In this document: piece after piece, positions 1 through 61,848 of the stretch
Layout: each line of letters begins with the position of its first letter
How positions within the stretch are numbered: the first letter of the stretch is position 1
Program-made: the position numbers and the translations under genes
The notes under the pieces: model-generated
Seen by the model: the letters and a program-made list of their open reading frames with translations, nothing else
The model's database searches: none
What the model was told of the DNA's origin: nothing
NCBI RefSeq assembly: GCF_009931435.1
Contig: NZ_CP043414.1
Direction: 5' to 3' (one strand)
Origin: Escherichia coli
Lineage (GTDB): Bacteria > Pseudomonadota > Gammaproteobacteria > Enterobacterales > Enterobacteriaceae
DNA length: 64,000 bases

Positions 1-202
1 TTAACACCAGGCTTATCAGGCGGTCTGGCTTACGCAGCAATTTTTCGACACGTTTGGCCGAGCGATTACCCTGTTTCGCCATATGCCGCAGACGATAGCG
101 GTTGAGGGTCATCATTCCGGTTTCGGACCCGGAAAAATAGGCTGAAATGACCACCATGATGATCAGAATAATGATCAACGTGGTAGTAGATATGTGTTCC
201 AG
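1..202 (-). CDS. corB: 5' portion of CorB/YfjD-family membrane protein gene (partial, runs off window); N-terminus reads EHISTTTLIIILIIMVV..., start codon uncertain
   Basis: Reverse-strand translation matches the N-terminus of E. coli YfjD/CorB as I recall it; synteny next to ypjD. Confidence 0.6.
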   Translation of the reverse strand, partial: MEHISTTTLIIILIIMVVISAYFSGSETGMMTLNRYRLRHMAKQGNRSAKRVEKLLRKPDRLISLVL

Positions 203-222
203 GGGAAACTCCTTTTCTGGGG

Positions 223-1014
223 TTAGCTGATTAACTGCTGGACAATTCGGCTACCGAAGTAGGCCAGTGTCAGAATGACCGCACCCGCAACGTTAAACCA
301 GACGACGCGGCGTCCACGCCATCCTTCATGATAATGTCCCCACAGCAGCACAATATAGACAAACCACGCCACGATAGAGAGCACGGCCTTGTCGATATTT
401 TCCATGCTAAATAAGTTGTGCATGTAGAAGAGACCAGTGCAAAGAGTGAGCGTTAACAGCACCACGCCAATCTGCGTGATGTGGAACATTTTACGCTCGA
501 TACTCATCAACGGCGGCATTTCCTGGTTAAACGCCAGCTTCTTGTTCTTCAGTTGGTAATCAATCCACGCCAGTTGTAATGCATACAGAGCGGCGATAAT
601 CAGCGTGGCATAGGAAAAGAGCGATAAGCCAATGTGAACCAGCATCCCAGGCGTTGCTTCCAGATGGGTGATGTATTCATTGGGCATAAAGGTGGCCAGC
701 GCCAGGTTGATAAGCGCAAAGGCATAGACAATGGGTAGCAGTAACCAGCCACGATTGCGGGAAGCCACGATGGTCATTACCGTACAGATCATCAAACTGA
801 CCAGCGAACCAACGTTCAGTAAGCTGAGGTTTTGTCCGCTATCACCGTCGGGCAGGATGCGGGCTTCCAGAGCGATTGCGTGGCAGACCAGCGCGATGAC
901 CGCAGAAATAATAGCCATGCGCCGCCAGCCGCCGTTTTTTTGCAGCAGACCGGGAACAATCAGCGCAAGACTGACGGAGTAGGCGACAAGCGCGAGCAGA
1001 GCAAAAACGGGCAT
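223..1014 (-). CDS. ypjD: Inner membrane protein YpjD (cytochrome c assembly family); start taken at the internal Met (MPVFALLALV...)
   Basis: ORF 223..1089; multi-TM protein matching YpjD; 263-aa product from the internal start. Confidence 0.85.
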   Translation of the reverse strand: MPVFALLALVAYSVSLALIVPGLLQKNGGWRRMAIISAVIALVCHAIALEARILPDGDSGQNLSLLNVGSLVSLMICTVMTIVASRNRGWLLLPIVYAFALINLALATFMPNEYITHLEATPGMLVHIGLSLFSYATLIIAALYALQLAWIDYQLKNKKLAFNQEMPPLMSIERKMFHITQIGVVLLTLTLCTGLFYMHNLFSMENIDKAVLSIVAWFVYIVLLWGHYHEGWRGRRVVWFNVAGAVILTLAYFGSRIVQQLIS

Positions 1015-1180
1015 AGTAATGTCGACAGTTTGAGCAATAAGAAAGAGAAGCAGTATAGCGTCAGGTGAACGCTGCTCCAACCGTTGCATAACAACAAAGA
1101 CGCCTTCATGTTATACTGCGGCAAAATACTGATGATGTGTCGCGATTGCGGCCAACCGTTTCCACCCCAGGCGAGAGACA

Positions 1181-2542
1181 ATGTTTGATAATTTAACCGA
1201 TCGTTTGTCGCGCACGCTGCGCAATATCAGTGGCCGTGGACGCCTCACTGAAGACAACGTAAAAGATACGCTGCGCGAAGTGCGCATGGCGCTGCTGGAG
1301 GCGGACGTCGCCCTGCCGGTAGTGCGTGAGTTTATCAATCGCGTAAAAGAGAAAGCGGTTGGTCATGAAGTTAATAAGAGCCTGACGCCGGGGCAGGAGT
1401 TCGTCAAAATCGTCCGTAACGAACTGGTTGCGGCGATGGGCGAAGAGAACCAGACCCTGAATCTGGCTGCGCAACCGCCAGCGGTGGTACTGATGGCGGG
1501 CCTGCAAGGTGCCGGTAAAACAACCAGCGTGGGCAAGCTCGGTAAGTTCCTGCGTGAGAAGCACAAGAAGAAAGTGCTGGTGGTTTCTGCTGACGTCTAT
1601 CGCCCGGCGGCAATCAAACAGCTTGAGACGCTGGCAGAGCAGGTGGGCGTTGATTTCTTCCCTTCTGATGTTGGTCAGAAGCCGGTTGATATTGTTAACG
1701 CGGCGCTGAAAGAAGCCAAACTGAAATTCTACGACGTGCTGCTGGTGGATACCGCTGGTCGTCTGCACGTTGACGAAGCGATGATGGACGAGATCAAACA
1801 AGTCCATGCGTCGATTAACCCGGTTGAAACCCTGTTTGTGGTTGACGCCATGACCGGTCAGGATGCGGCCAATACGGCAAAAGCATTCAATGAAGCGTTA
1901 CCGCTGACCGGTGTGGTACTGACTAAAGTCGACGGCGATGCTCGTGGCGGTGCGGCGCTCTCTATTCGTCACATTACGGGCAAACCGATCAAGTTCCTCG
2001 GTGTTGGCGAGAAAACCGAGGCGCTGGAGCCGTTCCATCCGGACCGCATCGCTTCCCGTATTCTCGGCATGGGCGACGTGCTGTCGCTGATCGAAGATAT
2101 CGAAAGTAAAGTTGACCGCGCGCAGGCAGAGAAATTAGCCAGCAAGCTGAAAAAAGGCGACGGCTTCGATCTCAACGACTTCCTTGAGCAACTGCGCCAG
2201 ATGAAAAATATGGGCGGCATGGCTAGCCTGATGGGCAAACTGCCGGGCATGGGGCAGATCCCGGATAACGTCAAGTCGCAGATGGACGATAAAGTGCTGG
2301 TGCGTATGGAAGCCATCATCAACTCGATGACGATGAAAGAGCGCGCTAAGCCAGAAATCATCAAAGGTTCGCGTAAACGCCGTATCGCTGCCGGTTGCGG
2401 TATGCAGGTGCAGGACGTTAACCGTCTTCTGAAACAGTTCGACGACATGCAGCGCATGATGAAGAAAATGAAGAAGGGCGGAATGGCGAAGATGATGAGA
2501 AGCATGAAAGGGATGATGCCGCCGGGATTTCCTGGTCGCTAA
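1181..2542 (+). CDS. ffh: Signal recognition particle protein Ffh (SRP54 GTPase)
   Basis: 453 aa; GTPase motifs GLQGAGKTT, DTAGR, TKVDGD; Met-rich C-terminal M domain. Confidence 0.97.
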   Translation: MFDNLTDRLSRTLRNISGRGRLTEDNVKDTLREVRMALLEADVALPVVREFINRVKEKAVGHEVNKSLTPGQEFVKIVRNELVAAMGEENQTLNLAAQPPAVVLMAGLQGAGKTTSVGKLGKFLREKHKKKVLVVSADVYRPAAIKQLETLAEQVGVDFFPSDVGQKPVDIVNAALKEAKLKFYDVLLVDTAGRLHVDEAMMDEIKQVHASINPVETLFVVDAMTGQDAANTAKAFNEALPLTGVVLTKVDGDARGGAALSIRHITGKPIKFLGVGEKTEALEPFHPDRIASRILGMGDVLSLIEDIESKVDRAQAEKLASKLKKGDGFDLNDFLEQLRQMKNMGGMASLMGKLPGMGQIPDNVKSQMDDKVLVRMEAIINSMTMKERAKPEIIKGSRKRRIAAGCGMQVQDVNRLLKQFDDMQRMMKKMKKGGMAKMMRSMKGMMPPGFPGR

Positions 2543-2600
2543 ATGACCTTATGCGACAGAGTTATTAACTGCTGATTGCATTTTCTCCAGAAATCAGTAA

Positions 2601-2927
<327 letters not shown>

Positions 2928-2945
2928 TCTGTCACGGTGGTCATG

Positions 2946-3494
2946 ATGAGCAAACAACTCACCGCGCAAGCACCTGTTGATCCCATCGTTTTGGGAAAAA
3001 TGGGTTCGTCTTACGGTATTCGTGGGTGGCTCAGAGTGTTTTCTTCCACCGAAGACGCCGAAAGCATTTTTGACTATCAGCCCTGGTTTATCCAGAAGGC
3101 GGGTCAGTGGCAGCAAGTCCAGCTGGAAAGCTGGAAGCACCACAATCAGGACATGATCATCAAGCTGAAAGGCGTTGACGATCGTGATGCGGCGAACCTG
3201 CTGACGAATTGTGAAATTGTCGTGGATTCATCGCAGCTGCCTCAGCTTGAAGAGGGTGACTACTACTGGAAAGACCTGATGGGCTGCCAGGTAATAACCA
3301 CTGAAGGCTACGATCTCGGTAAAGTCATCGATATGATGGAAACCGGATCTAATGACGTTCTCGTCATTAAGGCAAACCTGAAAGATGCGTTTGGTATCAA
3401 GGAACGTCTCGTACCGTTCCTCGATGGGCAGGTTATCAAGAAAGTCGATCTCACTACTCGTTCAATCGAAGTAGATTGGGATCCTGGTTTTTAA
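2946..3494 (+). CDS. rimM: Ribosome maturation factor RimM
   Basis: 182 aa from [10 protein letters not shown]...; operon context. Confidence 0.93.
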
Positions 3495-11120: not shown

Positions 11121-11142
11121 AGTGTTGCCTTTTTGTTATCAA

Positions 11143-11170
11143 TAAAAAAGGCCCCCCGGTTTGGGAGGCC
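11143..11170 (-). terminator. pheA attenuator terminator
   Basis: Minus-strand hairpin ggcctcccaaaccggggggcc followed by U-run, between pheL and pheA. Confidence 0.8.
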
Positions 11171-11218
11171 TTATTGTTCGTCTTCGCATTCTGTTTCACA
11201 CGACGAAACGCCTCCCAT

Positions 11219-11266
11219 TCAGGGGAAGGTAAAAAAGAATGCGAAGAAAAACGGCGTGTGTTTCAT
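11219..11266 (-). CDS. pheL: pheA leader peptide PheL ([15 protein letters not shown])
   Basis: 15-codon minus-strand ORF with seven Phe codons, directly upstream of the attenuator. Confidence 0.9.
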   Translation of the reverse strand: [15 protein letters not shown]

Positions 11267-11320
11267 GTTTGTTTCCTTAGGTGACTTCAGTACAGTACCC
11301 GTACTGTTTTCTCGCTGTCA

Positions 11321-11433: not shown

Positions 11434-12456
11434 TTATGTGGATGAAATGTGGATGCCTCCTTTTAACGGATTAAGTGAAATTGCATCCTGGAGGAAATCA
11501 GGAGCGAGGTGCGCATAGGTCATAGTTTGCTGGATCGTGGCGTGCCCCATAATTCGCTGGAGCGTAAGTATATTTCCTCCATTAATCATAAAGTGAGCAG
11601 CAAAGGTATGGCGTAGAACATGTACAGCCTGTCCTTTTGGTAGGTCTGGCTTAACACTGCGAAGCACCTTGCGATATTCCTCATAATTGACGTCAAACAA
11701 AAGGCCGGATTTCTTTGTTTTGATCTCACTAACAACTTCATCAGAGACAGGAATAATTCGAACTTTTCCGTTTTTAGTTTTGTTAAACGTCACGCGATTA
11801 TTGATGATGTGTTCCGCGCGCAGATTTTTCGCTTCTCCCCATCTCGCCCCAGTACTGAGACAAAGTAGCGTAATCCGCCGGGCATCACCGCTTACTGCAT
11901 CCAGTAATTTGGCGATTTCTTCCATGGTGAGATACGTCATTTCGGGTGATTTTCGTTTCAAAGAGGGGAGGGCGCGGAGCGGATTTTCTCCGTGAAATTC
12001 CCCGGCATTTGCCAGGAGTGTAAACATTCCTCCGAGATCCGACTCATCACGCCGAACAGTAGACTCTTTTACTCCCAAAGATAAACGGGAGCTTCGATAA
12101 GCGGCCATGAAACGAGCATTAATCTGGCTAACCCTTGGATCATTCATTTCTTTGATGATTTTTTTCAACCTGGTTAGAACGCCGTTAGCATATGGCTTAT
12201 TGCGTCCACCCAATTCCCACCATAACGGAAGCAGATCTGAGAGATGACGTTGCTCTGTTGGCTTTTCAAGCCATTCCTTATCGTGCATGTGGCTGAGAAC
12301 ATAACGCTCAAAGGCCACTGCATCTGCCTTTTTCTTAAAAATCCGCTGAATCCGACGTCCACTTCGGCCACGCGGTCTAACATCCACTTTATACCGTCCA
12401 CCATCGAGCGCTTTAATTGCCATTGGCAAGCCCTCCGGTGAAACGAGGAAAGACAT
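11434..12456 (-). CDS. int: Tyrosine integrase, P2 Int-like (start possibly at 12423, MAIKALDGGRY)
   Basis: Similar to P2 Int as I recall it (LSTGARWGEA, HxLRHTFA, YAH motifs). Confidence 0.9.
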   Translation of the reverse strand: MSFLVSPEGLPMAIKALDGGRYKVDVRPRGRSGRRIQRIFKKKADAVAFERYVLSHMHDKEWLEKPTEQRHLSDLLPLWWELGGRNKPYANGVLTRLKKIIKEMNDPRVSQINARFMAAYRSSRLSLGVKESTVRRDESDLGGMFTLLANAGEFHGENPLRALPSLKRKSPEMTYLTMEEIAKLLDAVSGDARRITLLCLSTGARWGEAKNLRAEHIINNRVTFNKTKNGKVRIIPVSDEVVSEIKTKKSGLLFDVNYEEYRKVLRSVKPDLPKGQAVHVLRHTFAAHFMINGGNILTLQRIMGHATIQQTMTYAHLAPDFLQDAISLNPLKGGIHISST

Positions 12457-15526: not shown

Positions 15527-15537
15527 AGGACCGCGAT

Positions 15538-15750
15538 ATGAACAAAAAGACCTGGTTTCGCGCATACATGTGGGCGCTGGTATGCGTCCTCGTTTCTCTC
15601 ATTCTGTATGTGGGGCTACTTCCCAGAATGATTTCATCAGACAGCTCCTTCCTGGTATTGCTGGGCATTTTTGTCGCCTTGCTGTACCCGGCGGGCGTTG
15701 TTCGCTTTTTCAGTAACTACATCAAAGCAATTATGGAAACCAAACAATGA
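15538..15750 (+). CDS. Small two-TM membrane protein (70 aa)
   Basis: Two hydrophobic helices; ATGA overlap with downstream SPFH gene. Confidence 0.5.
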   Translation: MNKKTWFRAYMWALVCVLVSLILYVGLLPRMISSDSSFLVLLGIFVALLYPAGVVRFFSNYIKAIMETKQ

Positions 15751-16571
15751 AAAAACTATTACCACTCATCCCTCTCCTGATGACCACACTTCTGGTTGGC
15801 TGTGACCGCGTGGAGCCGGGCAATGTAGGCATCAAAGTCAACAAACTGGGCGACGATAAAGGCGTCGGTGAAGTAGTTGGCGTTGGCCGCTACTGGACAG
15901 GCTGGAATACAGAGGTTTACATCTTCCCGACTTTCAAACAAATGAAGACTTACGATGAGCCGTTCAACTTCCAGATGAGTGACGGCACAACCATCGGCTA
16001 TCACATCGGCGTGGCCTACAAAGTTGATCCATCCAAAGTTACCACTGTGTTTCAGACCTACCGCAAAGGCGTGGATGACATTACCGACACTGACCTGCGC
16101 CAGAAGATCGCCGATGCACTCAACCGACTGGCCAGCAAAATGACCACCGATAAGTTTATCGACGGTGGCAAGTCTGAACTGCTGGATTCAGCACTTAAAG
16201 ACATTCAGTCAGAAATGACACCTATCGGCATTCAGGTCATGAGCCTCTCTTATGTCGGTAAACCGGAATATCCGCCAACCGTTATCGACAGCATTAACGC
16301 CAAAGTCACGGCAAACCAGAAAACCCTGCAACGCGAACAGGAAGTCAAGCAACGCGAAGCAGAAGCCAACATGTTGCGCGCAGAAGCTGCCGGACAGGCT
16401 GATGCCATTCGCACAAAAGCCCAGGCTGAAGCCGACGCCATTCGTTTACGCGGTGAAGCTCTGCGCCAGAATCCCGGCGTTATGGAGCTGGAAGCAATCA
16501 ACAAATGGAACGGCACGCTGCCGCAATACATGACCAGCAACACCGCTGTTCCGTTTGTTCCGGTGAAGTAA
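15747..16571 (+). CDS. SPFH/band-7 (prohibitin/HflKC-like) domain lipoprotein
   Basis: Signal peptide plus lipobox LLVGC; SPFH-like core; Ala/Glu/Arg-rich coiled-coil tail. Confidence 0.6.
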   Translation: MKKLLPLIPLLMTTLLVGCDRVEPGNVGIKVNKLGDDKGVGEVVGVGRYWTGWNTEVYIFPTFKQMKTYDEPFNFQMSDGTTIGYHIGVAYKVDPSKVTTVFQTYRKGVDDITDTDLRQKIADALNRLASKMTTDKFIDGGKSELLDSALKDIQSEMTPIGIQVMSLSYVGKPEYPPTVIDSINAKVTANQKTLQREQEVKQREAEANMLRAEAAGQADAIRTKAQAEADAIRLRGEALRQNPGVMELEAINKWNGTLPQYMTSNTAVPFVPVK

Positions 16572-16940
16572 TTAAACCCGGCCAGTGAAAATCGCTGGCC
16601 GGAGCAGTATCAGGATTTTTTTTAGTATGCCGTTCTCACAAAAAAACCGCTTGCCATGCCGCAATCAGTCAGGTTACATTTCCGCTGCACCTCATAAAAC
16701 GGGTGCCGGGTTTCGCAGCCTGCTGACAACCAAAGCGCACAACCGCGCCAGCGGTTTTTTTGTGCGTACTGTATTGCCACGTCTTTTTCGCACACGAATT
16801 ATGGCGGGGCGTACGGGGCCGACTTCGGTCGGGCCGGGTTCTTTGGTTGCCGGTACTGCGAACCCCGTACGTCTCGCCACCCACAGTTTCGCAGCTCTGG
16901 ATGGTGAGTTTTCAAAACTTACAACCAAAGAGGCTACACC

Positions 16941-17171
16941 ATGGCAAACCGCAAACAGCACCGCGCTATCGCGGAGCGTCGTCACATCCAGACTGAAATC
17001 AACCGCAGACTTTCCCGCGCATTCCGCGTCGCTAAAATCATGCACATCAATATGCTGCATGAGCGTAGCTGCGAACTTTCAAACCTCTACTCATCCGCTG
17101 TTTTCAGTTATCTGGCGGATGATCTGCGCGAGCTTCAGCAGCTCATCCAGCAGCAAAACAAACTCCATTAA
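16941..17171 (+). CDS. Hypothetical small basic protein (76 aa)
   Basis: AAAGAGG RBS. Confidence 0.45.
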   Translation: MANRKQHRAIAERRHIQTEINRRLSRAFRVAKIMHINMLHERSCELSNLYSSAVFSYLADDLRELQQLIQQQNKLH

Positions 17172-17243
17172 TTCCTGTTCCGGGCCTTTCCTGCACCTTG
17201 CGGCGGGAGGCCTTCGCACATCTGTAACAAGAGGATTGCCGCA

Positions 17244-17609
17244 ATGATTCTCGCCAACGACTTTCTTGAATACCTGCTCAACACAGAGCGTGATCTTGCC
17301 GCTCGCGTGCGTGATCGTTATGACATGTACCTGAAATCCCTGCCTGTACCGCAGCTCGCTGACGGAAAGATTGTTATTGATGGTCGCTACATGATTGACA
17401 GCCACGAGGGAAATTACAGGCTTTCCCGCATTGAAGGTGGCACCCCGTCCGTTATTGGCATTTACCAGCGCCCATCCTCTGCAATCGTCGATGTGATTGC
17501 CGACAGCATCCGCATCACACATCGCCATGCCGACACAGAAGACACCGTGCTGGAAATTCAGCGGCTGGCTACAGTCTGCCGCGACACCCTGAATGGCATG
17601 ACGAAGTAA
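17244..17609 (+). CDS. Hypothetical protein (121 aa) upstream of replication gene
   Basis: AGAGGA RBS; position analogous to P2 gene B. Confidence 0.45.
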   Translation: MILANDFLEYLLNTERDLAARVRDRYDMYLKSLPVPQLADGKIVIDGRYMIDSHEGNYRLSRIEGGTPSVIGIYQRPSSAIVDVIADSIRITHRHADTEDTVLEIQRLATVCRDTLNGMTK

Positions 17610-17615
17610 ATCACT

Positions 17616-20438
17616 ATGACGGCAGAGTACATCAGGGACTGGCAACAACCGCGCCACGCAGTGGGGCGTGAAGGAACGGGGATCCCCGCTCCTGAATCCG
17701 CGCTTTCCTCCTGGCTGGATGCCTACCGGGTAGAGAACGAGCGCCGCCAGGAAATGGCTGATGCGGCGTTCTCCGCCACGCCGCTGGGCAACCTGATTAA
17801 TAAAAGCCTGGACGCACAGGAAAAACAGGACAAAACCATCACACTGGCAGGAGACGCCAGAAAACAGGCACGCGGCGCAGTGGATGAAGCCATGACCTCG
17901 CTGCGCCTGCTGCCGTCCTATCTGCGCGATCCGCTTATTCGCCACCTCTCCTTCCTGCGCAAAAAACAGGAAGCCGATCGCCGGAAAGGCAAAAAGAGCT
18001 GGCAGGCGGAACGCTATGCACGCGGAACCCTGCGCAAAATATTCGAACGTCTGGACCGCACCGATCACCGCTGGCTGACACCGGGTTATCGCTCCCTTGC
18101 CGGACGCGAACGCCTGGACGATTTGCTTTACCTGCCGCAGCTCAACAAACACCAGATACAGACGCTGGCCACCATGACGGCGGCGATGTTCAGCAGCACC
18201 TTCGAAAAACTCTGCGATGGCTTTGGCGCGACTGATGGCGAACTGACCATGGATGTAACGCTGAAGGCGTATCAGATGCTGGCCCGCATGGCGTTACACC
18301 TGCACGCCATGCCTCCACATTATGACGCACTGACAACAGACAAAGACCGGAGGAACGAACCGGACACAGAGCTGCTGCCGGGCGCAATCCTTCGCCTGAC
18401 CTGTGCGGAATGGTGGAAACGCAAACTGTGGCTGTTACGTTGCGAGTGGCGGGAAGAACAACTCCGCGCCGCCTGTCTGGTTTCCAGAAAAACATCGCCC
18501 TATCTGAGCCAGGACGCGTTAAGCGAGTTTCGCGCACAGCGCGAGAAAACACGCGATTTCCTGAAAAGTTTCATGCTGGAAAACGAAGACGGGTTCACGA
18601 TTGATCTCGAGACAGTGTATTACGCGGGAGTAAGTAACCCGGTTCACCGTAAGGCAGAAATGATGGCCACCATGAAGGGACTGGAACTTCTGGCCGAAGC
18701 CCGTGGCGACAGAGCGGTGTTTCTGACTGTCACCTGCCCGTCAAAATACCACGCAACAACGGAGAACGGTCATCCGAACCCCAAATGGAACGGGGCCACC
18801 ATGCGCGACTCCAGCGATTACCTGGTTAACACGTTTTTTGCGGCGGTCCGCAAAAAACTGAACCGCGACGGCCTGCGCTGGTATGGCATCCGCACGGTGG
18901 AGCCTCACCATGACGGCACCGTGCACTGGCATATGATGGTCTTTGCTCATCCGGAAGAAATCGACAGCATCGTGGCCATCACCCGCGATATTGCCATTCA
19001 GGAAGACCGCCACGAGCTGGGCAATGATATTACTCCGCGCTTTAAAGTGGAGTATGTCGACGGCTCAAAAGGCACACCAACCAGCTATATCGCGACCTAC
19101 ATCGGGAAAAACCTGGACAGCCGCGCCGTGGATGGCATCGACCCGAAAACGGGCAAACCACGCGTTGACCACGAAACCGGAAAGTCAATGGCCGAGAGCG
19201 TGGAACGCGCCATCGGCTGGGCGCGCCTTCACCGTGTCCGCCAGTTCCAGTTCTTTGGTATCCCCTCCCGTCAGGTGTGGCGTGAACTGCGTCGCCTTGC
19301 CAGCCAGATGGCACGCAACCCGGAAGGCCCGCAACAGCTGAAGGATGACGCAATGGATGCGGTACTCGCTGCCGCTGATGCCGGATGTTTTGCCACCTAC
19401 ATAGAGAAACAGGGCGGCGTTCTTGTTCCACGCAAAGACTACCTGATTCGCACCGCCTACGACCTCGCAGATGAGCTGAACGATTACGGCGAACAGAGCG
19501 TACAGATTTACGGGATCTGGTCGCCACTCATCGGGGAATCCTCCCGTGTGTGCACGCATCCGGATAACTGGAAGCTGGTAAGACGTAAACCGGAAACGGA
19601 AGACAGCGCCCGCGAAAATGGTTTTGACCTTCAGGGCGGCCCTGCCGCCCCTTGGACTCGTGGCAATAACTGTCCCCGTGTACAGGAAACGGACAACAAC
19701 GGGACAGAACAGCCGGAAGAACGGCCAGCACCGTGGCCGCAGCTTCCTGACAGCGTTGACGTGAATGAATGGATGCGCTCACTGAAACGGCACGAACGCC
19801 GGGCGCTGATGCGTTCGCTGCGTGACAAACAGGCAAAAAACAGCAGTGATGAAATGCAGAACTGGACACAGAGCCGCAAACAGCCACGGCCTTTGCCTGA
19901 TAACCACGAGTTACTCGCTAAAGAATGGCGGGAGTCTGCTGAATCTCTCGGCCTGCATATTGGTGAACAGCAGATGCAGCACCTGTTACGGGGCGGCAGT
20001 CTGTACGTTGACGGCAGCATCATTGCACCGCAGGGATTTGAAATTGTACGCAAACCGGATACCCGCCCGGACAGCCGAATCACGCAGCTCTGGCAGCGCC
20101 TGAGCCGTAATCACGGCGTAAGCAGCACGGGGATCCGCCATAACCCGGTCGCCAGCTATCTGGAACAGCTGGGGGCATCAGACCCCGAAGCCGCCGCACG
20201 CCTGGCATCCACACTTCAGCAGGACCAGAACACCATGAAAACCCCCGTTACCGTGCTTTCTGACATGCTGCGCGCCATCCGTGACGCAGAGCACGCACAG
20301 AGAATCAGTGAAACAACTGAACGCGCCCGCCGCAAAGCAGACCTGCTGCGGGGTGGCCTGACCAGTGGAAACAAAAAACAGACAAAAACAGGATTCACAA
20401 ATCCCGTAAATGAGCAAAAAACGCGCCGTGATATATGA
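17616..20438 (+). CDS. Rolling-circle replication initiator (HUH endonuclease, P2 gpA / phiX174 gpA family), 940 aa
   Basis: HUH motif in VHWHMMVFAHP and catalytic Tyr motif YIATYIGKNLD; position after the early operon. Confidence 0.8.
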   Translation: MTAEYIRDWQQPRHAVGREGTGIPAPESALSSWLDAYRVENERRQEMADAAFSATPLGNLINKSLDAQEKQDKTITLAGDARKQARGAVDEAMTSLRLLPSYLRDPLIRHLSFLRKKQEADRRKGKKSWQAERYARGTLRKIFERLDRTDHRWLTPGYRSLAGRERLDDLLYLPQLNKHQIQTLATMTAAMFSSTFEKLCDGFGATDGELTMDVTLKAYQMLARMALHLHAMPPHYDALTTDKDRRNEPDTELLPGAILRLTCAEWWKRKLWLLRCEWREEQLRAACLVSRKTSPYLSQDALSEFRAQREKTRDFLKSFMLENEDGFTIDLETVYYAGVSNPVHRKAEMMATMKGLELLAEARGDRAVFLTVTCPSKYHATTENGHPNPKWNGATMRDSSDYLVNTFFAAVRKKLNRDGLRWYGIRTVEPHHDGTVHWHMMVFAHPEEIDSIVAITRDIAIQEDRHELGNDITPRFKVEYVDGSKGTPTSYIATYIGKNLDSRAVDGIDPKTGKPRVDHETGKSMAESVERAIGWARLHRVRQFQFFGIPSRQVWRELRRLASQMARNPEGPQQLKDDAMDAVLAAADAGCFATYIEKQGGVLVPRKDYLIRTAYDLADELNDYGEQSVQIYGIWSPLIGESSRVCTHPDNWKLVRRKPETEDSARENGFDLQGGPAAPWTRGNNCPRVQETDNNGTEQPEERPAPWPQLPDSVDVNEWMRSLKRHERRALMRSLRDKQAKNSSDEMQNWTQSRKQPRPLPDNHELLAKEWRESAESLGLHIGEQQMQHLLRGGSLYVDGSIIAPQGFEIVRKPDTRPDSRITQLWQRLSRNHGVSSTGIRHNPVASYLEQLGASDPEAAARLASTLQQDQNTMKTPVTVLSDMLRAIRDAEHAQRISETTERARRKADLLRGGLTSGNKKQTKTGFTNPVNEQKTRRDI

Positions 20439-53511: not shown

Positions 53512-53640
53512 CCTAAAGAATCAAGACGATCCGGTACGCGTGATTTTCTTTTCACATTAATCTGGTCAATAACCTTGAATAATTGAGGGATGACCTCATT
53601 TAATCTCCAGTAGCAACTTTGATCCGTTATGGGAGGAGTT

Positions 53641-56214
53641 ATGCGTCTGGATCGTCTTACTAATAAATTCCAGCTTGCTCTTGCCGATGCCCAATCACTT
53701 GCACTCGGGCACGACAACCAATTCATCGAACCTCTTCATTTAATGAGCGCCCTGCTGAATCAGGAAGGGGGTTCGGTTAGTCCTTTATTAACATCCGCCG
53801 GCATCAATGCTGGTCAGTTGCGCACAGATATCAATCAGGCATTAAATCGTTTACCGCAGGTTGAAGGCACTGGTGGCGATGTCCAGCCCTCACAGGATCT
53901 GGTGCGCGTTCTTAATCTTTGCGACAAGCTGGCGCAAAAACGTGGTGATAACTTTATCTCGTCAGAACTGTTCGTTCTGGCGGCACTTGAGTCTCGCGGC
54001 ACGCTGGCCGACATCCTGAAAGCAGCAGGGGCGACCACCGCCAACATTACTCAAGCGATTGAACAAATGCGTGGAGGTGAAAGCGTGAACGATCAAGGAG
54101 CTGAAGACCAACGTCAGGCTTTGAAAAAATACACTATCGACCTCACCGAACGAGCCGAACAAGGCAAACTCGATCCGGTGATTGGCCGTGATGAAGAAAT
54201 TCGCCGTACCATTCAGGTACTGCAACGTCGTACTAAAAATAACCCGGTGCTGATTGGTGAACCAGGTGTTGGTAAAACAGCCATCGTTGAAGGTCTGGCT
54301 CAGCGTATTATCAATGGCGAAGTACCGGAAGGGCTGAAAGGCCGCCGCGTACTGGCGCTGGATATGGGCGCGCTGGTGGCTGGGGCGAAATATCGCGGTG
54401 AGTTTGAAGAACGTTTAAAAGGCGTACTTAACGATCTTGCTAAACAGGAAGGGAACGTCATCCTGTTTATCGACGAATTACATACCATGGTCGGCGCGGG
54501 TAAAGCCGATGGCGCAATGGACGCCGGAAACATGCTGAAACCGGCGCTGGCGCGTGGTGAATTGCACTGCGTAGGTGCCACGACGCTGGACGAATATCGC
54601 CAGTACATCGAAAAAGATGCTGCGCTGGAACGTCGCTTCCAGAAAGTGTTTGTTGCCGAGCCAACCGTGGAAGACACCATTGCTATTCTGCGTGGCCTGA
54701 AAGAACGTTATGAACTGCACCACCATGTGCAAATTACTGACCCGGCAATTGTTGCAGCGGCGACGTTGTCTCATCGCTACATTGCTGACCGTCAGCTGCC
54801 GGATAAAGCCATCGACCTGATCGATGAAGCAGCATCCAGCATTCGTATGCAGATTGACTCAAAACCGGAAGAACTCGACCGACTCGATCGTCGTATCATC
54901 CAGCTCAAACTGGAACAACAGGCGTTAATGAAAGAGTCTGATGAAGCCAGTAAAAAACGCCTGGATATGCTCAACGAAGAACTGAGCGACAAAGAACGTC
55001 AGTATTCCGAGTTAGAAGAAGAGTGGAAAGCAGAGAAAGCCTCGCTCTCTGGTACGCAGACCATTAAAGCGGAACTGGAACAGGCGAAAATCGCTATTGA
55101 ACAGGCTCGCCGTGTGGGTGATCTGGCGCGGATGTCTGAACTGCAATACGGCAAAATTCCAGAACTGGAAAAGCAACTGGAAGCCGCAACGCAGCTCGAA
55201 GGCAAAACTATGCGTCTCTTGCGTAATAAAGTGACCGACGCCGAAATTGCTGAAGTGCTGGCGCGTTGGACGGGGATTCCGGTTTCTCGCATGATGGAAA
55301 GCGAGCGCGAAAAACTGCTGCGTATGGAGCAAGAGCTGCACCATCGCGTTATTGGTCAGAACGAAGCGGTTGATGCGGTATCTAACGCTATTCGTCGTAG
55401 CCGTGCGGGGCTTGCTGACCCGAATCGCCCGATTGGTTCATTCCTGTTCCTCGGCCCAACGGGTGTGGGGAAAACTGAGCTTTGTAAGGCGCTGGCGAAC
55501 TTTATGTTTGATAGCGACGAGGCGATGGTCCGTATCGATATGTCCGAGTTTATGGAGAAACACTCGGTGTCTCGTCTGGTTGGTGCGCCTCCGGGATATG
55601 TCGGTTATGAAGAAGGTGGCTACCTGACCGAAGCAGTGCGTCGTCGTCCGTATTCCGTCATCCTGCTGGATGAAGTGGAAAAAGCGCATCCGGATGTCTT
55701 CAACATTCTGTTGCAGGTACTGGATGATGGGCGTCTGACTGACGGGCAGGGGAGAACGGTCGACTTCCGTAATACGGTTGTCATTATGACCTCTAACCTC
55801 GGTTCCGATTTGATTCAGGAACGCTTCGGTGAACTGGATTATGCGCACATGAAAGAGCTGGTACTCGGTGTGGTAAGCCATAACTTCCGTCCGGAATTCA
55901 TTAACCGTATCGATGAAGTGGTGGTCTTCCATCCGCTGGGTGAACAGCACATTGCGTCGATTGCGCAGATTCAGTTGAAACGTCTGTACAAACGTCTGGA
56001 AGAACGTGGTTATGAAATCCACATTTCTGACGAGGCGCTGAAACTGCTGAGCGAGAACGGTTACGATCCGGTCTATGGTGCACGTCCTCTGAAACGTGCA
56101 ATCCAGCAGCAGATCGAAAACCCGCTGGCACAGCAAATACTGTCTGGTGAATTGGTTCCGGGTAAAGTTATTCGCCTGGAAGTTAATGAAGACAGGATTG
56201 TCGCCGTCCAGTAA
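53641..56214 (+). CDS. clpB: Chaperone disaggregase ClpB (start at [10 protein letters not shown])
   Basis: 857 aa; two AAA+ modules (GEPGVGKT and GPTGVGKT Walker A); ORF start at 53629 is a short upstream extension. Confidence 0.97.
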
Positions 56215-56655: not shown

Positions 56656-58197
<1,542 letters not shown>

Positions 58198-58368
58198 CCT
58201 TAAAGAAGCGTACTTTGCAGTGCTCACACAGATTGTCTGATGAAAAGTGAATAGCAAGGCGTTTACGCGTTGGGAGTGAGGCTGAAGAGAATAAGGCCGT
58301 TCGCTTTCTATTAATGAAAGCTCACCCTACACGAAAATATCACGCAGCGCGTGATAAGCAATTTTCGT

Positions 58369-58444
58369 GTCCCCTTCGTCTAGAGGCCCAGGACACCGCC
58401 CTTTCACGGCGGTAACAGGGGTTCGAATCCCCTAGGGGACGCCA
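58369..58444 (+). tRNA. gltW: tRNA-Glu (UUC) in the 16S-23S spacer
   Basis: GTCCCCTTCGTCTAGAGG...GGGGACGCCA, 76 nt. Confidence 0.95.
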
Positions 58445-58637
58445 CTTGCTGGTTTGTGAGTGAAAGTCACCTGCCTTAATATCTCAAAACTCATCTTCGG
58501 GTGACGTTTGAGATATTTGCTCTTTAAAAATCTGGATCAAGCTGAAAATTGAAACACTGAACAACGAAAGTTGTTCGTGAGTCTCTCAAATTTTCGCAAC
58601 ACGATGATGAATCGCAAGAAACATCTTCGGGTTGTGA

Positions 58638-61541
<2,904 letters not shown>

Positions 61542-61728
61542 TACAACGCCGAAGGTGTTTTGGCGGATTGAGAGAATTTCAGCTTGGATCCAGAGTCCGA
61601 AGGATTTTGCGCTGAGACAAGGCGGCAAATGAAGCGAAGGAAGGAGCATACTGAAGTATGTGACTGATTTTCGCGAATGCAGCCAACGCAGTATCAGCAC
61701 AAAAGACACAGGACAGAGCACAGGAATT

Positions 61729-61848
61729 TGCCTGGCGGCCTTAGCGCGGTGGTCCCACCTGACCCCATGCCGAACTCAGAAGTGAAACGCCGTAGCGCCG
61801 ATGGTAGTGTGGGGTCTCCCCATGCGAGAGTAGGGAACTGCCAGGCAT
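61729..61848 (+). rRNA. rrfG: 5S ribosomal RNA
   Basis: TGCCTGGCGGCC...GAACTGCCAGGCAT, 120 nt. Confidence 0.97.

What the first reader, a model, noticed from the sequence alone, without database searches (positions are those of the whole stretch)
15538..16571. Prophage early-region pair: small two-TM protein plus SPFH/band-7 lipoprotein
A 70-aa two-helix membrane protein is translationally coupled to a 274-aa lipoprotein (lipobox LLVGC) with an SPFH-like core and a long Ala/Glu/Arg-rich coiled-coil tail. Host SPFH complexes (HflK/HflC) modulate FtsH and thereby the lambda lysis/lysogeny decision. A phage-encoded SPFH lipoprotein expressed from the early operon could act in superinfection exclusion, membrane remodelling or FtsH modulation, and is not a standard P2 gene.
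Basis: partly seen in the sequence, partly recalled or inferred. Interest (0 to 1): 0.55.

Follow-up and report, generated by a model that had tools for sequence, protein, structure and literature searches.

The report
Phage SPFH lipoprotein with two-helix partner
The two genes are real and form a mobile phage cassette encoding a lipid-anchored, prohibitin/HflK-like "cage" protein plus a small two-helix membrane partner; the pair is widespread in phages of Gram-negative bacteria and already catalogued, but nobody has tested what it does.

Summary
ORF 15538-15750 encodes a 70-aa two-TM protein. ORF 15747-16571, which overlaps it by ATGA, encodes a 274-aa lipoprotein (LLVGC|D). That protein has a Band_7/SPFH domain (Pfam E 5.8e-31), a confident AlphaFold model (pLDDT 93) and full-length fold matches to HflC/HflK, prohibitin, erlin, stomatin and QmcA.

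The pair is a discrete ~1.1-kb cassette in the early operon of a P88-like (P2-family) prophage and is absent from close relatives. It is not a P2 oddity: SPFH relatives occur in 382 phage records, temperate and virulent, and in 7% of complete E. coli genomes.

The main new point is that the small partner forms a conserved family of its own, with a periplasmic loop motif P-x-L-[IV]-S. It was found upstream of the SPFH gene in 10 of 13 independently sampled lineages and in 80 of 80 close viral contigs. About 20 of the 150 best cluster representatives carry it fused in frame to the SPFH protein.

The partner is not NfeD-like. The protein is not an HflK/HflC orthologue. There is no match to known defence systems.

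The most likely mechanism is an inner-membrane-anchored periplasmic SPFH cage built 1:1 with its partner and made early in lytic growth. Its physiological role (exclusion or membrane protection, versus FtsH control) remains untested. The family is known and its function is open, so interest is moderate.

The parts
15527..15531 (+). Shine-Dalgarno-like AAGGA, 6 nt before the partner start codon
   Evidence: Read directly from the sequence.
15538..15750 (+). Partner gene: 70-aa two-TM inner-membrane protein, inferred N-in/C-in, with periplasmic loop LLPRMISSDSS
   Evidence: ORF. Two hydrophobic segments. PHROG 1130 E 2e-21. No Pfam or NfeD match. Family alignment with near-invariant Pro29 and Ser33. 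An HMM of the family finds the ORF upstream of the SPFH gene in 10 of 13 independent phage lineages and in 80 of 80 viral contigs.
15747..15750 (+). ATGA stop/start overlap (translational coupling)
   Evidence: Sequence. The same 4-nt overlap occurs in P88, phiP27, Fraca, Stx2 phages and phi1026b and in most of the 80 viral contigs.
15747..15803 (+). Signal peptide and lipobox (MKKLLPLIPLLMTTLLVGC); Cys19 is followed by Asp+2 and Arg+3
   Evidence: Sequence. Cys is invariant in alignments A5 and A7. C-D-R is present in 95 of 95 pattern-matched Enterobacterales homologues. DNA similarity to unrelated prophages starts just after this segment.
15804..16571 (+). Mature SPFH protein (255 aa, about 28 kDa): SPFH1 beta domain, SPFH2 alpha/beta domain, 65-residue helix, short helix, then a C-terminal tail with invariant W254 and G256 and near-invariant P259
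   Evidence: Pfam Band_7. AlphaFold2 pLDDT 93.2. Foldseek: HflC 2e-14, prohibitin, erlin, HflK, stomatin, flotillin, QmcA. Profile against PDB sequences: prohibitin-1 E 7e-11. Conservation.
16578..16622 (+). Strong hairpin (16578-16602) followed 12 nt later by U8 (16615-22), at the 3' end of the cassette; possibly a terminator, attenuator or RNA stabiliser
   Evidence: RNA fold -23.6 kcal/mol, z = -4.45. It lies inside the segment missing from phage 705R2.
15527..16638 (+). Extent of the cassette relative to P88-like phages that lack it
   Evidence: Alignments with vB_EcoM-705R2 and P88. Homology to 705R2 stops after the stop codon of the Ead/Ea22-like gene and resumes at about 16639, just before the isrK region.

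Best explanation
This is a mobile two-gene phage accessory module. Shown: gene 1 encodes a ~70-aa hairpin of two transmembrane helices, and gene 2 encodes a secreted SPFH (prohibitin/HflK/C-type) protein with a lipoprotein signal. Shown: the two genes overlap by ATGA, and in some relatives they are fused in frame into one precursor that keeps the lipobox. Inferred from this: they are made in roughly equal amounts. Inferred: after lipidation and signal-peptide cleavage the SPFH protein stays on the periplasmic face of the inner membrane. Three things point that way: Asp at +2, the natural fusions to the TM partner, and relatives with an uncleaved TM anchor. Inferred: like every structurally solved full-length SPFH relative, it assembles into a closed multimeric ring or cage over a patch of membrane, with the partner hairpins acting as its transmembrane skirt or as its enclosed client. 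Inferred from position: in this prophage the pair sits inside the Cox-to-gpA early operon with no evident promoter of its own, so it should be made early after infection or induction, as in the virulent phages that carry it. My preferred physiological role, which is speculative, is to insulate or stabilise the inner membrane of the infected cell. That could mean blocking genome entry by later-arriving phages or preserving membrane integrity until programmed lysis, rather than steering a lysis/lysogeny decision.
For: SPFH identity: Pfam E 5.8e-31; AlphaFold2 pLDDT 93 with SPFH1, SPFH2 and a 65-aa helix; full-length Foldseek matches to the cage formers HflC/HflK, prohibitin, erlin, stomatin, flotillin and QmcA; profile-to-PDB match to prohibitin-1 at E 7e-11. 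Lipoprotein: the Cys is invariant and lies 2-4 residues before the first strand across the family. Inner-membrane location: C-D-R in 95 of 95 Enterobacterales homologues; about 20 of 150 representatives are in-frame fusions of two-TM partner, signal/lipobox segment and SPFH, with basic linkers consistent with N-in/C-in topology, and these fusions are real ORFs on phage-like contigs; several relatives carry an uncleaved N-terminal TM helix instead of a lipobox. Obligate pairing: the partner HMM hits the ORF upstream of the SPFH gene at E 1e-14 to 1e-4 in 10 of 13 independent lineages, out of 1128 ORFs scored, and in 80 of 80 viral contigs. Early, lytic-phase use: the region is collinear with the P88 early operon; no promoter-like site lies between 14378 and 16651; the module occurs in early or DNA-metabolism regions of virulent N4-like, rV5-like and FelixO1-like phages. 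Accessory and mobile: it is a discrete indel, its mature-SPFH DNA is about 90-92% identical between P2-like and lambdoid prophages, and it is present in 392 of 5426 E. coli genomes.
Against: No oligomer could be modelled, so cage formation rests on analogy. Asp+2 is followed by Arg+3, and I did not verify how strongly that combination avoids Lol. Some enterobacterial-phage relatives have Glu, Asn or Tyr at +2, which by E. coli rules would send them to the outer membrane. A possibly related Pasteurella prophage protein was detected in outer-membrane vesicles (PMC9872710). The partner is only about 20% identical between cassettes whose mature SPFH is about 95% identical, so any specific contact must rely on the short loop motif or on generic TM packing. 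There is no hit in PADLOC, no homology to T4 Imm and no experimental paper on function. The proposed exclusion or membrane-protection role therefore has no direct support. The strong conservation across hosts from alpha- to delta-proteobacteria argues for a universal target (the membrane itself, or FtsH) rather than a phage-specific exclusion target.
Confidence: 0.5

Rival explanations
1. FtsH decoy or modulator. The phage cage mimics HflK/C on the periplasmic side of the inner membrane and captures or excludes host FtsH, changing the turnover of membrane or regulatory proteins (phage or host) during infection.
For: It has the same topology as HflK/C, with a periplasmic SPFH domain. HflK and HflC are among the best sequence and fold matches. 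FtsH is universal, which fits the wide host range of the family. In solved complexes HflK/C cages enclose FtsH (PDB titles 7vhp, 7wi3 and 9cz2).
Against: The protein is not an HflK/HflC orthologue: 19-26 bits against cut-offs of 134-660. There is one SPFH gene rather than a K/C pair, and a lipid anchor instead of the TM helix. Prohibitin scores better than HflK/C with the family profile. P2-family and virulent carriers have no CII-type, FtsH-controlled switch (established knowledge). The 'FtsH' and 'ClpX' genes annotated next to the module in phiEaP8 are plain AAA ATPases.
Confidence: 0.17
2. Lysogenic-conversion surface or virulence lipoprotein. The protein is made by the lysogen, reaches the outer membrane or vesicles, and benefits the bacterium, for example through host interaction or TLR2 signalling.
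For: A prophage-island HflK/C-like protein of about 25-35 kDa in Pasteurella multocida (PM0222) was detected in wild-type cells and outer-membrane vesicles, signals via TLR1/2, and its deletion attenuates virulence (PMC9872710). The cassette is accessory and is enriched in pathogenic E. coli prophages, including Stx phages.
Against: I could not verify that PM0222 belongs to this family. The module is common in strictly virulent phages, where conversion is meaningless. In the window it lies inside the repressed early operon with no promoter-like site of its own. Asp+2 and the TM-partner fusions point to the inner membrane.
Confidence: 0.1
3. Lysis-timing device. The two-TM partner is a holin- or antiholin-like protein, and the SPFH cage corrals it (or the phage holin) to delay or sharpen membrane permeabilisation.
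For: The partner has the size and two-TM layout of class II holins and pinholins (my own knowledge). SPFH scaffolds confine membrane proteins laterally. The 1:1 synthesis suggests a cage-and-cargo relationship.
Against: The module is never next to the lysis cassette in the loci examined; it lies in early or replication regions. The partner has no hit to holin families in Pfam, and PHROGs files it under 'moron/host takeover'. The prophage should carry its own P2-type lysis genes elsewhere; I did not examine that.
Confidence: 0.08

Closest known systems
HflK/HflC (E. coli FtsH-modulating SPFH cage)
   Same: SPFH1-SPFH2-long helix architecture. The SPFH domain is on the periplasmic side of the inner membrane. 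Weak but significant sequence similarity (E 1.6e-7 and 5.5e-6 with the family profile).
   Different: A single gene instead of a K/C pair. A lipoprotein anchor instead of an N-terminal TM helix. Scores are far below the NCBIfam equivalog cut-offs. It has a dedicated two-TM partner that HflK/C lacks. Any FtsH link is untested.
Prohibitin-1/2 (mitochondrial inner-membrane SPFH cage)
   Same: Best profile match, nearly full length (E 7e-11, profile positions 8-244 against residues 14-231). Similar size (about 270 aa). Top Foldseek hits.
   Different: Eukaryotic, a heteromeric PHB1/PHB2 pair, TM-anchored, and only 12-16% identical.
SPFH-NfeD operons (QmcA-YbbJ, YqiK-YqiJ, FloA/FloT-NfeD)
   Same: An SPFH gene in an operon with a small membrane protein. 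QmcA is a fold match (8z5g).
   Different: The partner has no NfeD/OB-fold domain. To my knowledge QmcA and YqiK face the cytoplasm, whereas this protein is exported. The gene order and the 4-nt overlap are specific to the phage module.
PHROG 200 'lipoprotein' and PHROG 1130 'membrane protein' (phage protein families; P88 gp12/gp11, phiP27 L05, SSU5 062/061, BcepF1 002/001, phi1026b gp48/gp49)
   Same: The window genes are members (E 3.8e-111 and 2e-21). P88 carries the same cassette at 92.6% DNA identity.
   Different: Nothing structural. These families are catalogued, but no function has been tested, and their names in public records have drifted ('serine protease', 'transposase').
T4 Imm / Imm.1 (superinfection immunity)
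   Same: A small two-TM inner-membrane protein encoded next to a lipoprotein and expressed early.
   Different: No detectable homology (hhalign probability 0.9%). Imm.1 is not an SPFH protein, and the gene order is reversed.

Membership tests
SPFH / Band 7 superfamily (Pfam PF01145) | Significant match to the Band_7 profile | tested here: met
   E 5.8e-31, residues 21-207 covering model positions 2-176 of 176.
SPFH / Band 7 superfamily (Pfam PF01145) | SPFH alpha/beta fold followed by a long coiled-coil helix | tested here: met
   AlphaFold2 pLDDT 93.2 with strands at 19-93, an alpha/beta domain at 95-174 and a helix at 177-241. Foldseek E 1e-14 to 1e-8 against HflC, HflK, prohibitin, erlin, stomatin, flotillin and QmcA.
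SPFH / Band 7 superfamily (Pfam PF01145) | N-terminal membrane anchor | tested here: met
   Signal peptide plus lipobox LLVGC, with the Cys invariant across the family. Actual lipidation was not tested.
SPFH / Band 7 superfamily (Pfam PF01145) | Assembly into a large ring or cage oligomer | not testable with these tools
   Only monomer prediction was available. Inferred from the solved relatives listed.
HflK / HflC (NCBIfam TIGR01933, TIGR01932, NF008181, NF008259) | Score above the curated equivalog cut-off | tested here: not met
   26.4, 22.6, 19.0 and 18.6 bits against cut-offs of 134.4, 159.4, 427 and 660.
HflK / HflC (NCBIfam TIGR01933, TIGR01932, NF008181, NF008259) | Two paralogous SPFH subunits encoded together, each with an N-terminal TM helix | tested here: not met
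   There is one SPFH gene, it has a lipoprotein anchor, and its neighbour is a 70-aa two-TM protein.
HflK / HflC (NCBIfam TIGR01933, TIGR01932, NF008181, NF008259) | Physical association with FtsH | not testable with these tools
The 'FtsH' neighbour annotated in phage phiEaP8 is only an AAA ATPase.
SPFH-NfeD pair | Partner carries the NfeD C-terminal OB-fold domain (Pfam NfeD) | tested here: not met
   No Pfam hit at E <= 0.001. In the 70-aa protein only about 12 residues lie outside the TM hairpin.
Phage module PHROG 1130 + PHROG 200 | Both proteins match the family profiles and are adjacent on the same strand | tested here: met
   E 2e-21 and 3.8e-111. Adjacency holds in 10 of 13 independent lineages and 80 of 80 viral contigs.
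Known anti-phage defence systems (PADLOC-DB 2.0) | Match to any defence-protein model | tested here: not met
   No family at E <= 0.1 for either protein.
T4 Imm-type superinfection immunity protein | Sequence or profile homology of the two-TM partner to Imm | tested here: not met
   hhalign probability 0.9%, E 0.062 over 16 columns. The partner HMM does not hit T4 Imm.
Inner-membrane-retained lipoprotein (Lol avoidance) | Asp at position +2 after the lipidated Cys | tested here: met
   C-D-R in the window protein and in 95 of 95 pattern-matched Enterobacterales homologues. The effect of Arg at +3 was not verified and localisation was not tested.

The most novel reading that the evidence does not exclude
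The partner-SPFH pair is a self-contained phage 'membrane corral', a distinct class of SPFH system. A lipid-anchored periplasmic cage is made 1:1 with, or cleaved from, a two-TM hairpin. Phages of many diderm (Gram-negative-type) hosts deploy it early in infection to seal off a patch of inner membrane. This could block entry of competing phage genomes or neutralise membrane-targeting host defences. It would be a widespread, previously unrecognised exclusion or anti-defence mechanism that works through membrane compartmentalisation.
Probability: 0.2. Interest if true: 0.75.

Novelty: new member of a known kind. Interest (0 to 1): 0.4.

Why it matters
SPFH cages (HflK/C, prohibitin, stomatin, erlin, flotillin) have only recently been resolved structurally, and their clients and purposes are still debated. 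This phage version is small, has a single SPFH subunit, and comes with an obligate and sometimes fused two-helix partner. It is present in hundreds of phages, including virulent ones, and in about 7% of complete E. coli genomes. That makes it a compact and genetically tractable system for asking what an SPFH cage does to a bacterial membrane and why phages want one. If it proves to mediate superinfection exclusion, membrane protection or FtsH control, it would assign a function to a very common phage 'lipoprotein' that is now misannotated as a serine protease or a transposase. If not, it remains an ordinary accessory gene of unknown role.

Tried and rejected
1. NfeD-like partner: rejected. There is no Pfam match and no room for an OB-fold.
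2. HflK/HflC orthology: rejected by the NCBIfam cut-offs and by the architecture.
3. Known defence system: no PADLOC hit for either protein or for neighbours.
4. Partner homologous to T4 Imm: rejected. The 'superinfection exclusion protein' next to the SPFH gene in PhiSH19 has no TM helices and is unrelated to the partner.
5. A phage-encoded FtsH/ClpX next to the module in N4-like phiEaP8: the annotation has drifted, and the protein I scanned is only an AAA ATPase.
6. 'Serine protease' annotation (phiP27, Stx2 phages, P88 note): no protease domain was found. I take the name to be inherited from the old 'membrane protease subunit, stomatin/prohibitin homologue' label; that is my inference.
7. 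Spanin-like pair (inner-membrane protein plus lipoprotein): rejected. The module is never in a lysis cassette, the lipoprotein is a 28-kDa SPFH protein, and Asp+2 argues against the outer membrane.
8. Own promoter or moron-style expression: the consensus scan found nothing convincing upstream of the pair in the window or in phiP27. This is weak negative evidence only.
9. Foreign base composition: the cassette's GC content (0.48-0.53) is not distinct from its flanks.
Its fold search added nothing.
11. Literature: six searches found no functional study of the phage family. Several genome papers state that the role is unclear (PMC13239085, PMC8540360).
12. The first attempt to scan viral contigs with the 92-sequence alignment failed because it had no stretch conserved enough. 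A 14-sequence alignment worked but returned only close relatives.

Full report
OBSERVATION. The window carries a P88-like prophage of the P2 family (genus Xuanwuvirus). Its integrase lies at 11434-12456 on the minus strand, next to the Phe leader at 11142-11267. From the cox-like gene through replication gene A (17616-20438) the region is collinear with phage P88.

Both ORFs in the finding exist exactly as described: 15538-15750 (70 aa) and 15747-16571 (274 aa), sharing an ATGA stop/start overlap. The small protein has two hydrophobic helices with basic ends. The large one starts with a lipoprotein signal, MKKLLPLIPLLMTTLLVGC|DR. It matches Pfam Band_7/SPFH over residues 21-207 (E 5.8e-31). 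It ends in a 65-residue helix rich in Ala, Glu, Arg and Gln.

WHAT IT IS. An AlphaFold2 model built on 92 diverse homologues is confident (pLDDT 93.2). It shows a beta-rich SPFH1 domain beginning right after the lipidated Cys, an alpha/beta SPFH2 domain, one long helix, a short helix and a less confident C-terminal tail. Foldseek returns full-length matches to HflC, HflK, prohibitin-1/2, erlin-1/2, stomatin, flotillin and QmcA, at E between 1e-14 and 1e-8. These were all solved as large membrane-anchored rings or cages. A family profile matches prohibitin-1 best (E 7e-11), followed by HflK, HflC and QmcA.

The protein is not an HflK or HflC orthologue: NCBIfam scores are 19-26 bits against cut-offs of 134-660. 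PHROGs places the two proteins in families 200 ('lipoprotein') and 1130 ('membrane protein').

A DISCRETE, MOBILE CASSETTE. In the related phage vB_EcoM-705R2 the Ead/Ea22-like gene is followed directly by the isrK/C4 RNA region. The window and P88 differ from it by an insertion spanning about 15527-16638. That insertion holds just the two genes and a strong 3' hairpin.

Six P2-family relatives match only the flanks. The DNA encoding the mature SPFH protein is about 90-92% identical in lambdoid Stx2 phages, phiP27 and other E. coli prophages. The similarity begins just after the lipobox Cys and ends about 11 codons before the stop, so the partner plus signal peptide is exchanged as a separate unit. 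In total 392 of 5426 complete E. coli genomes carry the SPFH gene, and 144 carry the full P88-type pair.

NOT A PROPHAGE PECULIARITY. A tblastn search finds relatives in 382 phage records. They include P1-like RCS47, SSU5 phage-plasmids, N4-like Schitoviridae, rV5-like Vequintavirinae, FelixO1-like Ounavirinae and Pseudomonas Bruynogheviruses. They also include Burkholderia phages (phi1026b, BcepF1), phiCbK-like Caulobacter phages, Myxococcus Mx1, crAss-like phages and Lak megaphages. The exhaustive representative search gives 2869 hits at E<1e-3, and at least 589 viral contigs carry a relative.

THE PARTNER IS THE INFORMATIVE PART. The small protein has no Pfam match and no NfeD domain. It nevertheless belongs to a real family: two TM helices joined by a short loop with the motif P-x-[LM]-[IV]-S-[AS]-x-[SDT], in which the Pro and Ser are nearly invariant.

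I built an HMM of this family and scored it against all 1128 stop-to-stop ORFs of 18 loci. Its significant hits were the ORFs immediately upstream of the SPFH gene in 10 of 13 lineages that had not contributed to the HMM. These were RCS47, Hena1, phiEaP8, ORM_20, Paxi, Mx1, Pseudomonas phage 5400, Alcaligenes QDWS595, HHBS55_2 and BcepF1, at E 1e-14 to 1e-4. Two more lineages were borderline (crAss cr128, phiEa21-4). There was no hit in Karma, PhiSH19 or T4. Several of these partner genes are unannotated in the public records.

All 80 close viral-contig relatives have the partner upstream, overlapping the SPFH start by 4 or 20 nt.

About 20 of the best 150 cluster representatives are natural in-frame fusions of partner, basic linker, signal/lipobox segment and SPFH. 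All of those aligned keep the lipobox Cys. Two of them were checked and are intact ORFs on phage-like contigs, next to exonuclease and recombinase-like genes. This Rosetta-stone pattern, together with the start/stop overlap, argues that the two proteins act together in roughly equal amounts.

LOCATION AND TOPOLOGY (INFERRED). The basic termini of the partner and the basic linkers in the fusions fit an N-in/C-in hairpin with its conserved loop in the periplasm. The SPFH domain is exported.

Three observations point to the inner membrane:
- Asp at +2, as C-D-R, is present in 95 of 95 pattern-matched Enterobacterales homologues despite variable signal peptides.
- In the natural fusions the SPFH protein is joined to a TM hairpin.
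- Some relatives carry an uncleaved N-terminal TM helix in place of a lipobox.

Caveats: I did not verify the effect of Arg at +3. Some relatives have Glu, Asn or Tyr at +2.

MECHANISM. By analogy with every solved full-length relative, the most likely molecular picture is a multimeric SPFH ring or cage on the periplasmic face of the inner membrane. The partner hairpins would form its transmembrane skirt or its enclosed client.

In the window the pair lies inside the Cox-to-gpA early operon, and no promoter-like site precedes it. In virulent phages it sits among early and DNA-metabolism genes. It therefore looks like an early lytic-phase function.

The physiological role is not established. 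I favour insulation or protection of the infected cell's inner membrane, meaning exclusion of later phage genomes or maintenance of integrity until lysis. This has no direct support: PADLOC gives no hit, and the partner is not homologous to T4 Imm.

Its lambda-specific rationale does not transfer to P2-family or virulent phages. The 'FtsH' neighbour annotated in phiEaP8 is just an AAA ATPase.

A lysogenic-conversion role is suggested only by the Pasteurella prophage protein PM0222. That protein is HflK/C-like, is found in vesicles, signals through TLR1/2 and affects virulence (PMC9872710). I could not check whether it belongs to this family.

COMPARISON AND NOVELTY. The proteins are members of the SPFH superfamily and of catalogued phage families. 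The identical cassette is already annotated in P88 ('putative SPFH domain protein'), BcepF1 carries the label 'HflC/HflK family inner membrane lipoprotein', and several genome papers remark on the gene and call its role unclear (PMC13239085, PMC8540360).

Compared with characterised SPFH systems it differs in three ways. It has a lipid anchor rather than a TM helix. It has a single subunit rather than a K/C or PHB1/2 pair. It has a non-NfeD two-TM partner. I did not find the conserved partner, its loop motif or the natural fusions described in the literature I could search.

I rate it a new member of a known kind: a common, uncharacterised phage accessory module rather than something strange. 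Interest is moderate at 0.4, mainly as a tractable route to SPFH cage function and to annotating a very frequent phage 'lipoprotein'.

Noticed in passing
window 16687-16761, 16797-16884 and 16941-17171 (+): Directly downstream of the cassette lie an isrK-like sRNA (65.9 bits) and a C4-type antisense RNA (87.1 bits), each preceded by a sigma-70-like site. A 76-aa ORF follows that corresponds to P88 gp14 'derepression protein'. This looks like a P1 immI-type (c4/ant) antirepressor control module inside the early operon of a P2-family prophage.
   Followed up: partly
window 16585-17247 (+); L002 3339-3956: The 220-aa GTG ORF overlaps the isrK and C4 RNA genes and the derepression gene, and is probably spurious. 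Its counterpart is annotated as a 205-aa hypothetical protein in phage vB_EcoM-705R2.
   Followed up: partly
L003 2753-2941; L005 2762-2950; L019 1230-1466; L007 2253-2426; L009 1783-1995: The two-TM partner gene is missing from the annotation of phiP27, Stx2-converting phages, RCS47, phiEaP8 and HHBS55_2. In HHBS55_2 an opposite-strand ORF is annotated over it instead.
   Followed up: yes
public phage records listed: The SPFH gene carries drifted product names, including 'serine protease', 'putative transposase' and 'putative outer membrane lipoprotein'. In phiEaP8, AAA ATPases nearby are named 'FtsH' and 'ClpX'.
   Followed up: partly
window 15792-15807 and about 16537: There are mosaic breakpoints inside the SPFH gene. 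DNA similarity to lambdoid and other prophages starts just after the lipobox Cys codon and stops about 11 codons before the stop codon. Three partner types each travel with their own signal-peptide type, and two C-terminal tail variants occur (…NTAVPFVPVK and …GANTPFIQVK).
   Followed up: partly
window 16578-16622 (+): An 11-bp GC-rich hairpin, followed after 12 nt by U8, lies at the 3' end of the cassette, inside the early operon and upstream of replication gene A. It could attenuate read-through into the downstream genes.
   Followed up: no
L017 4374-5014 (phage T4 imm and imm.1): T4 imm (83 aa, two TM helices) is preceded by imm.1, a 125-aa protein with a clear lipobox (MKIAILVIALGLAGC) that is annotated 'iduronate sulfatase'. 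The layout, a lipoprotein next to a small two-TM protein, resembles the window pair, but there is no detectable homology.
   Followed up: partly
window 11142-11267 (-), 11434-12456 (-), 53522-53660 (+), 56656-61846 (+): Host context: the Phe leader lies next to the prophage integrase, and RyfD sRNA, an 861-aa ORF (53629-56214) and a complete rRNA operon lie downstream. The finding's pair (15538-16571) is 100% identical to E. coli strain 89-3156.
   Followed up: no
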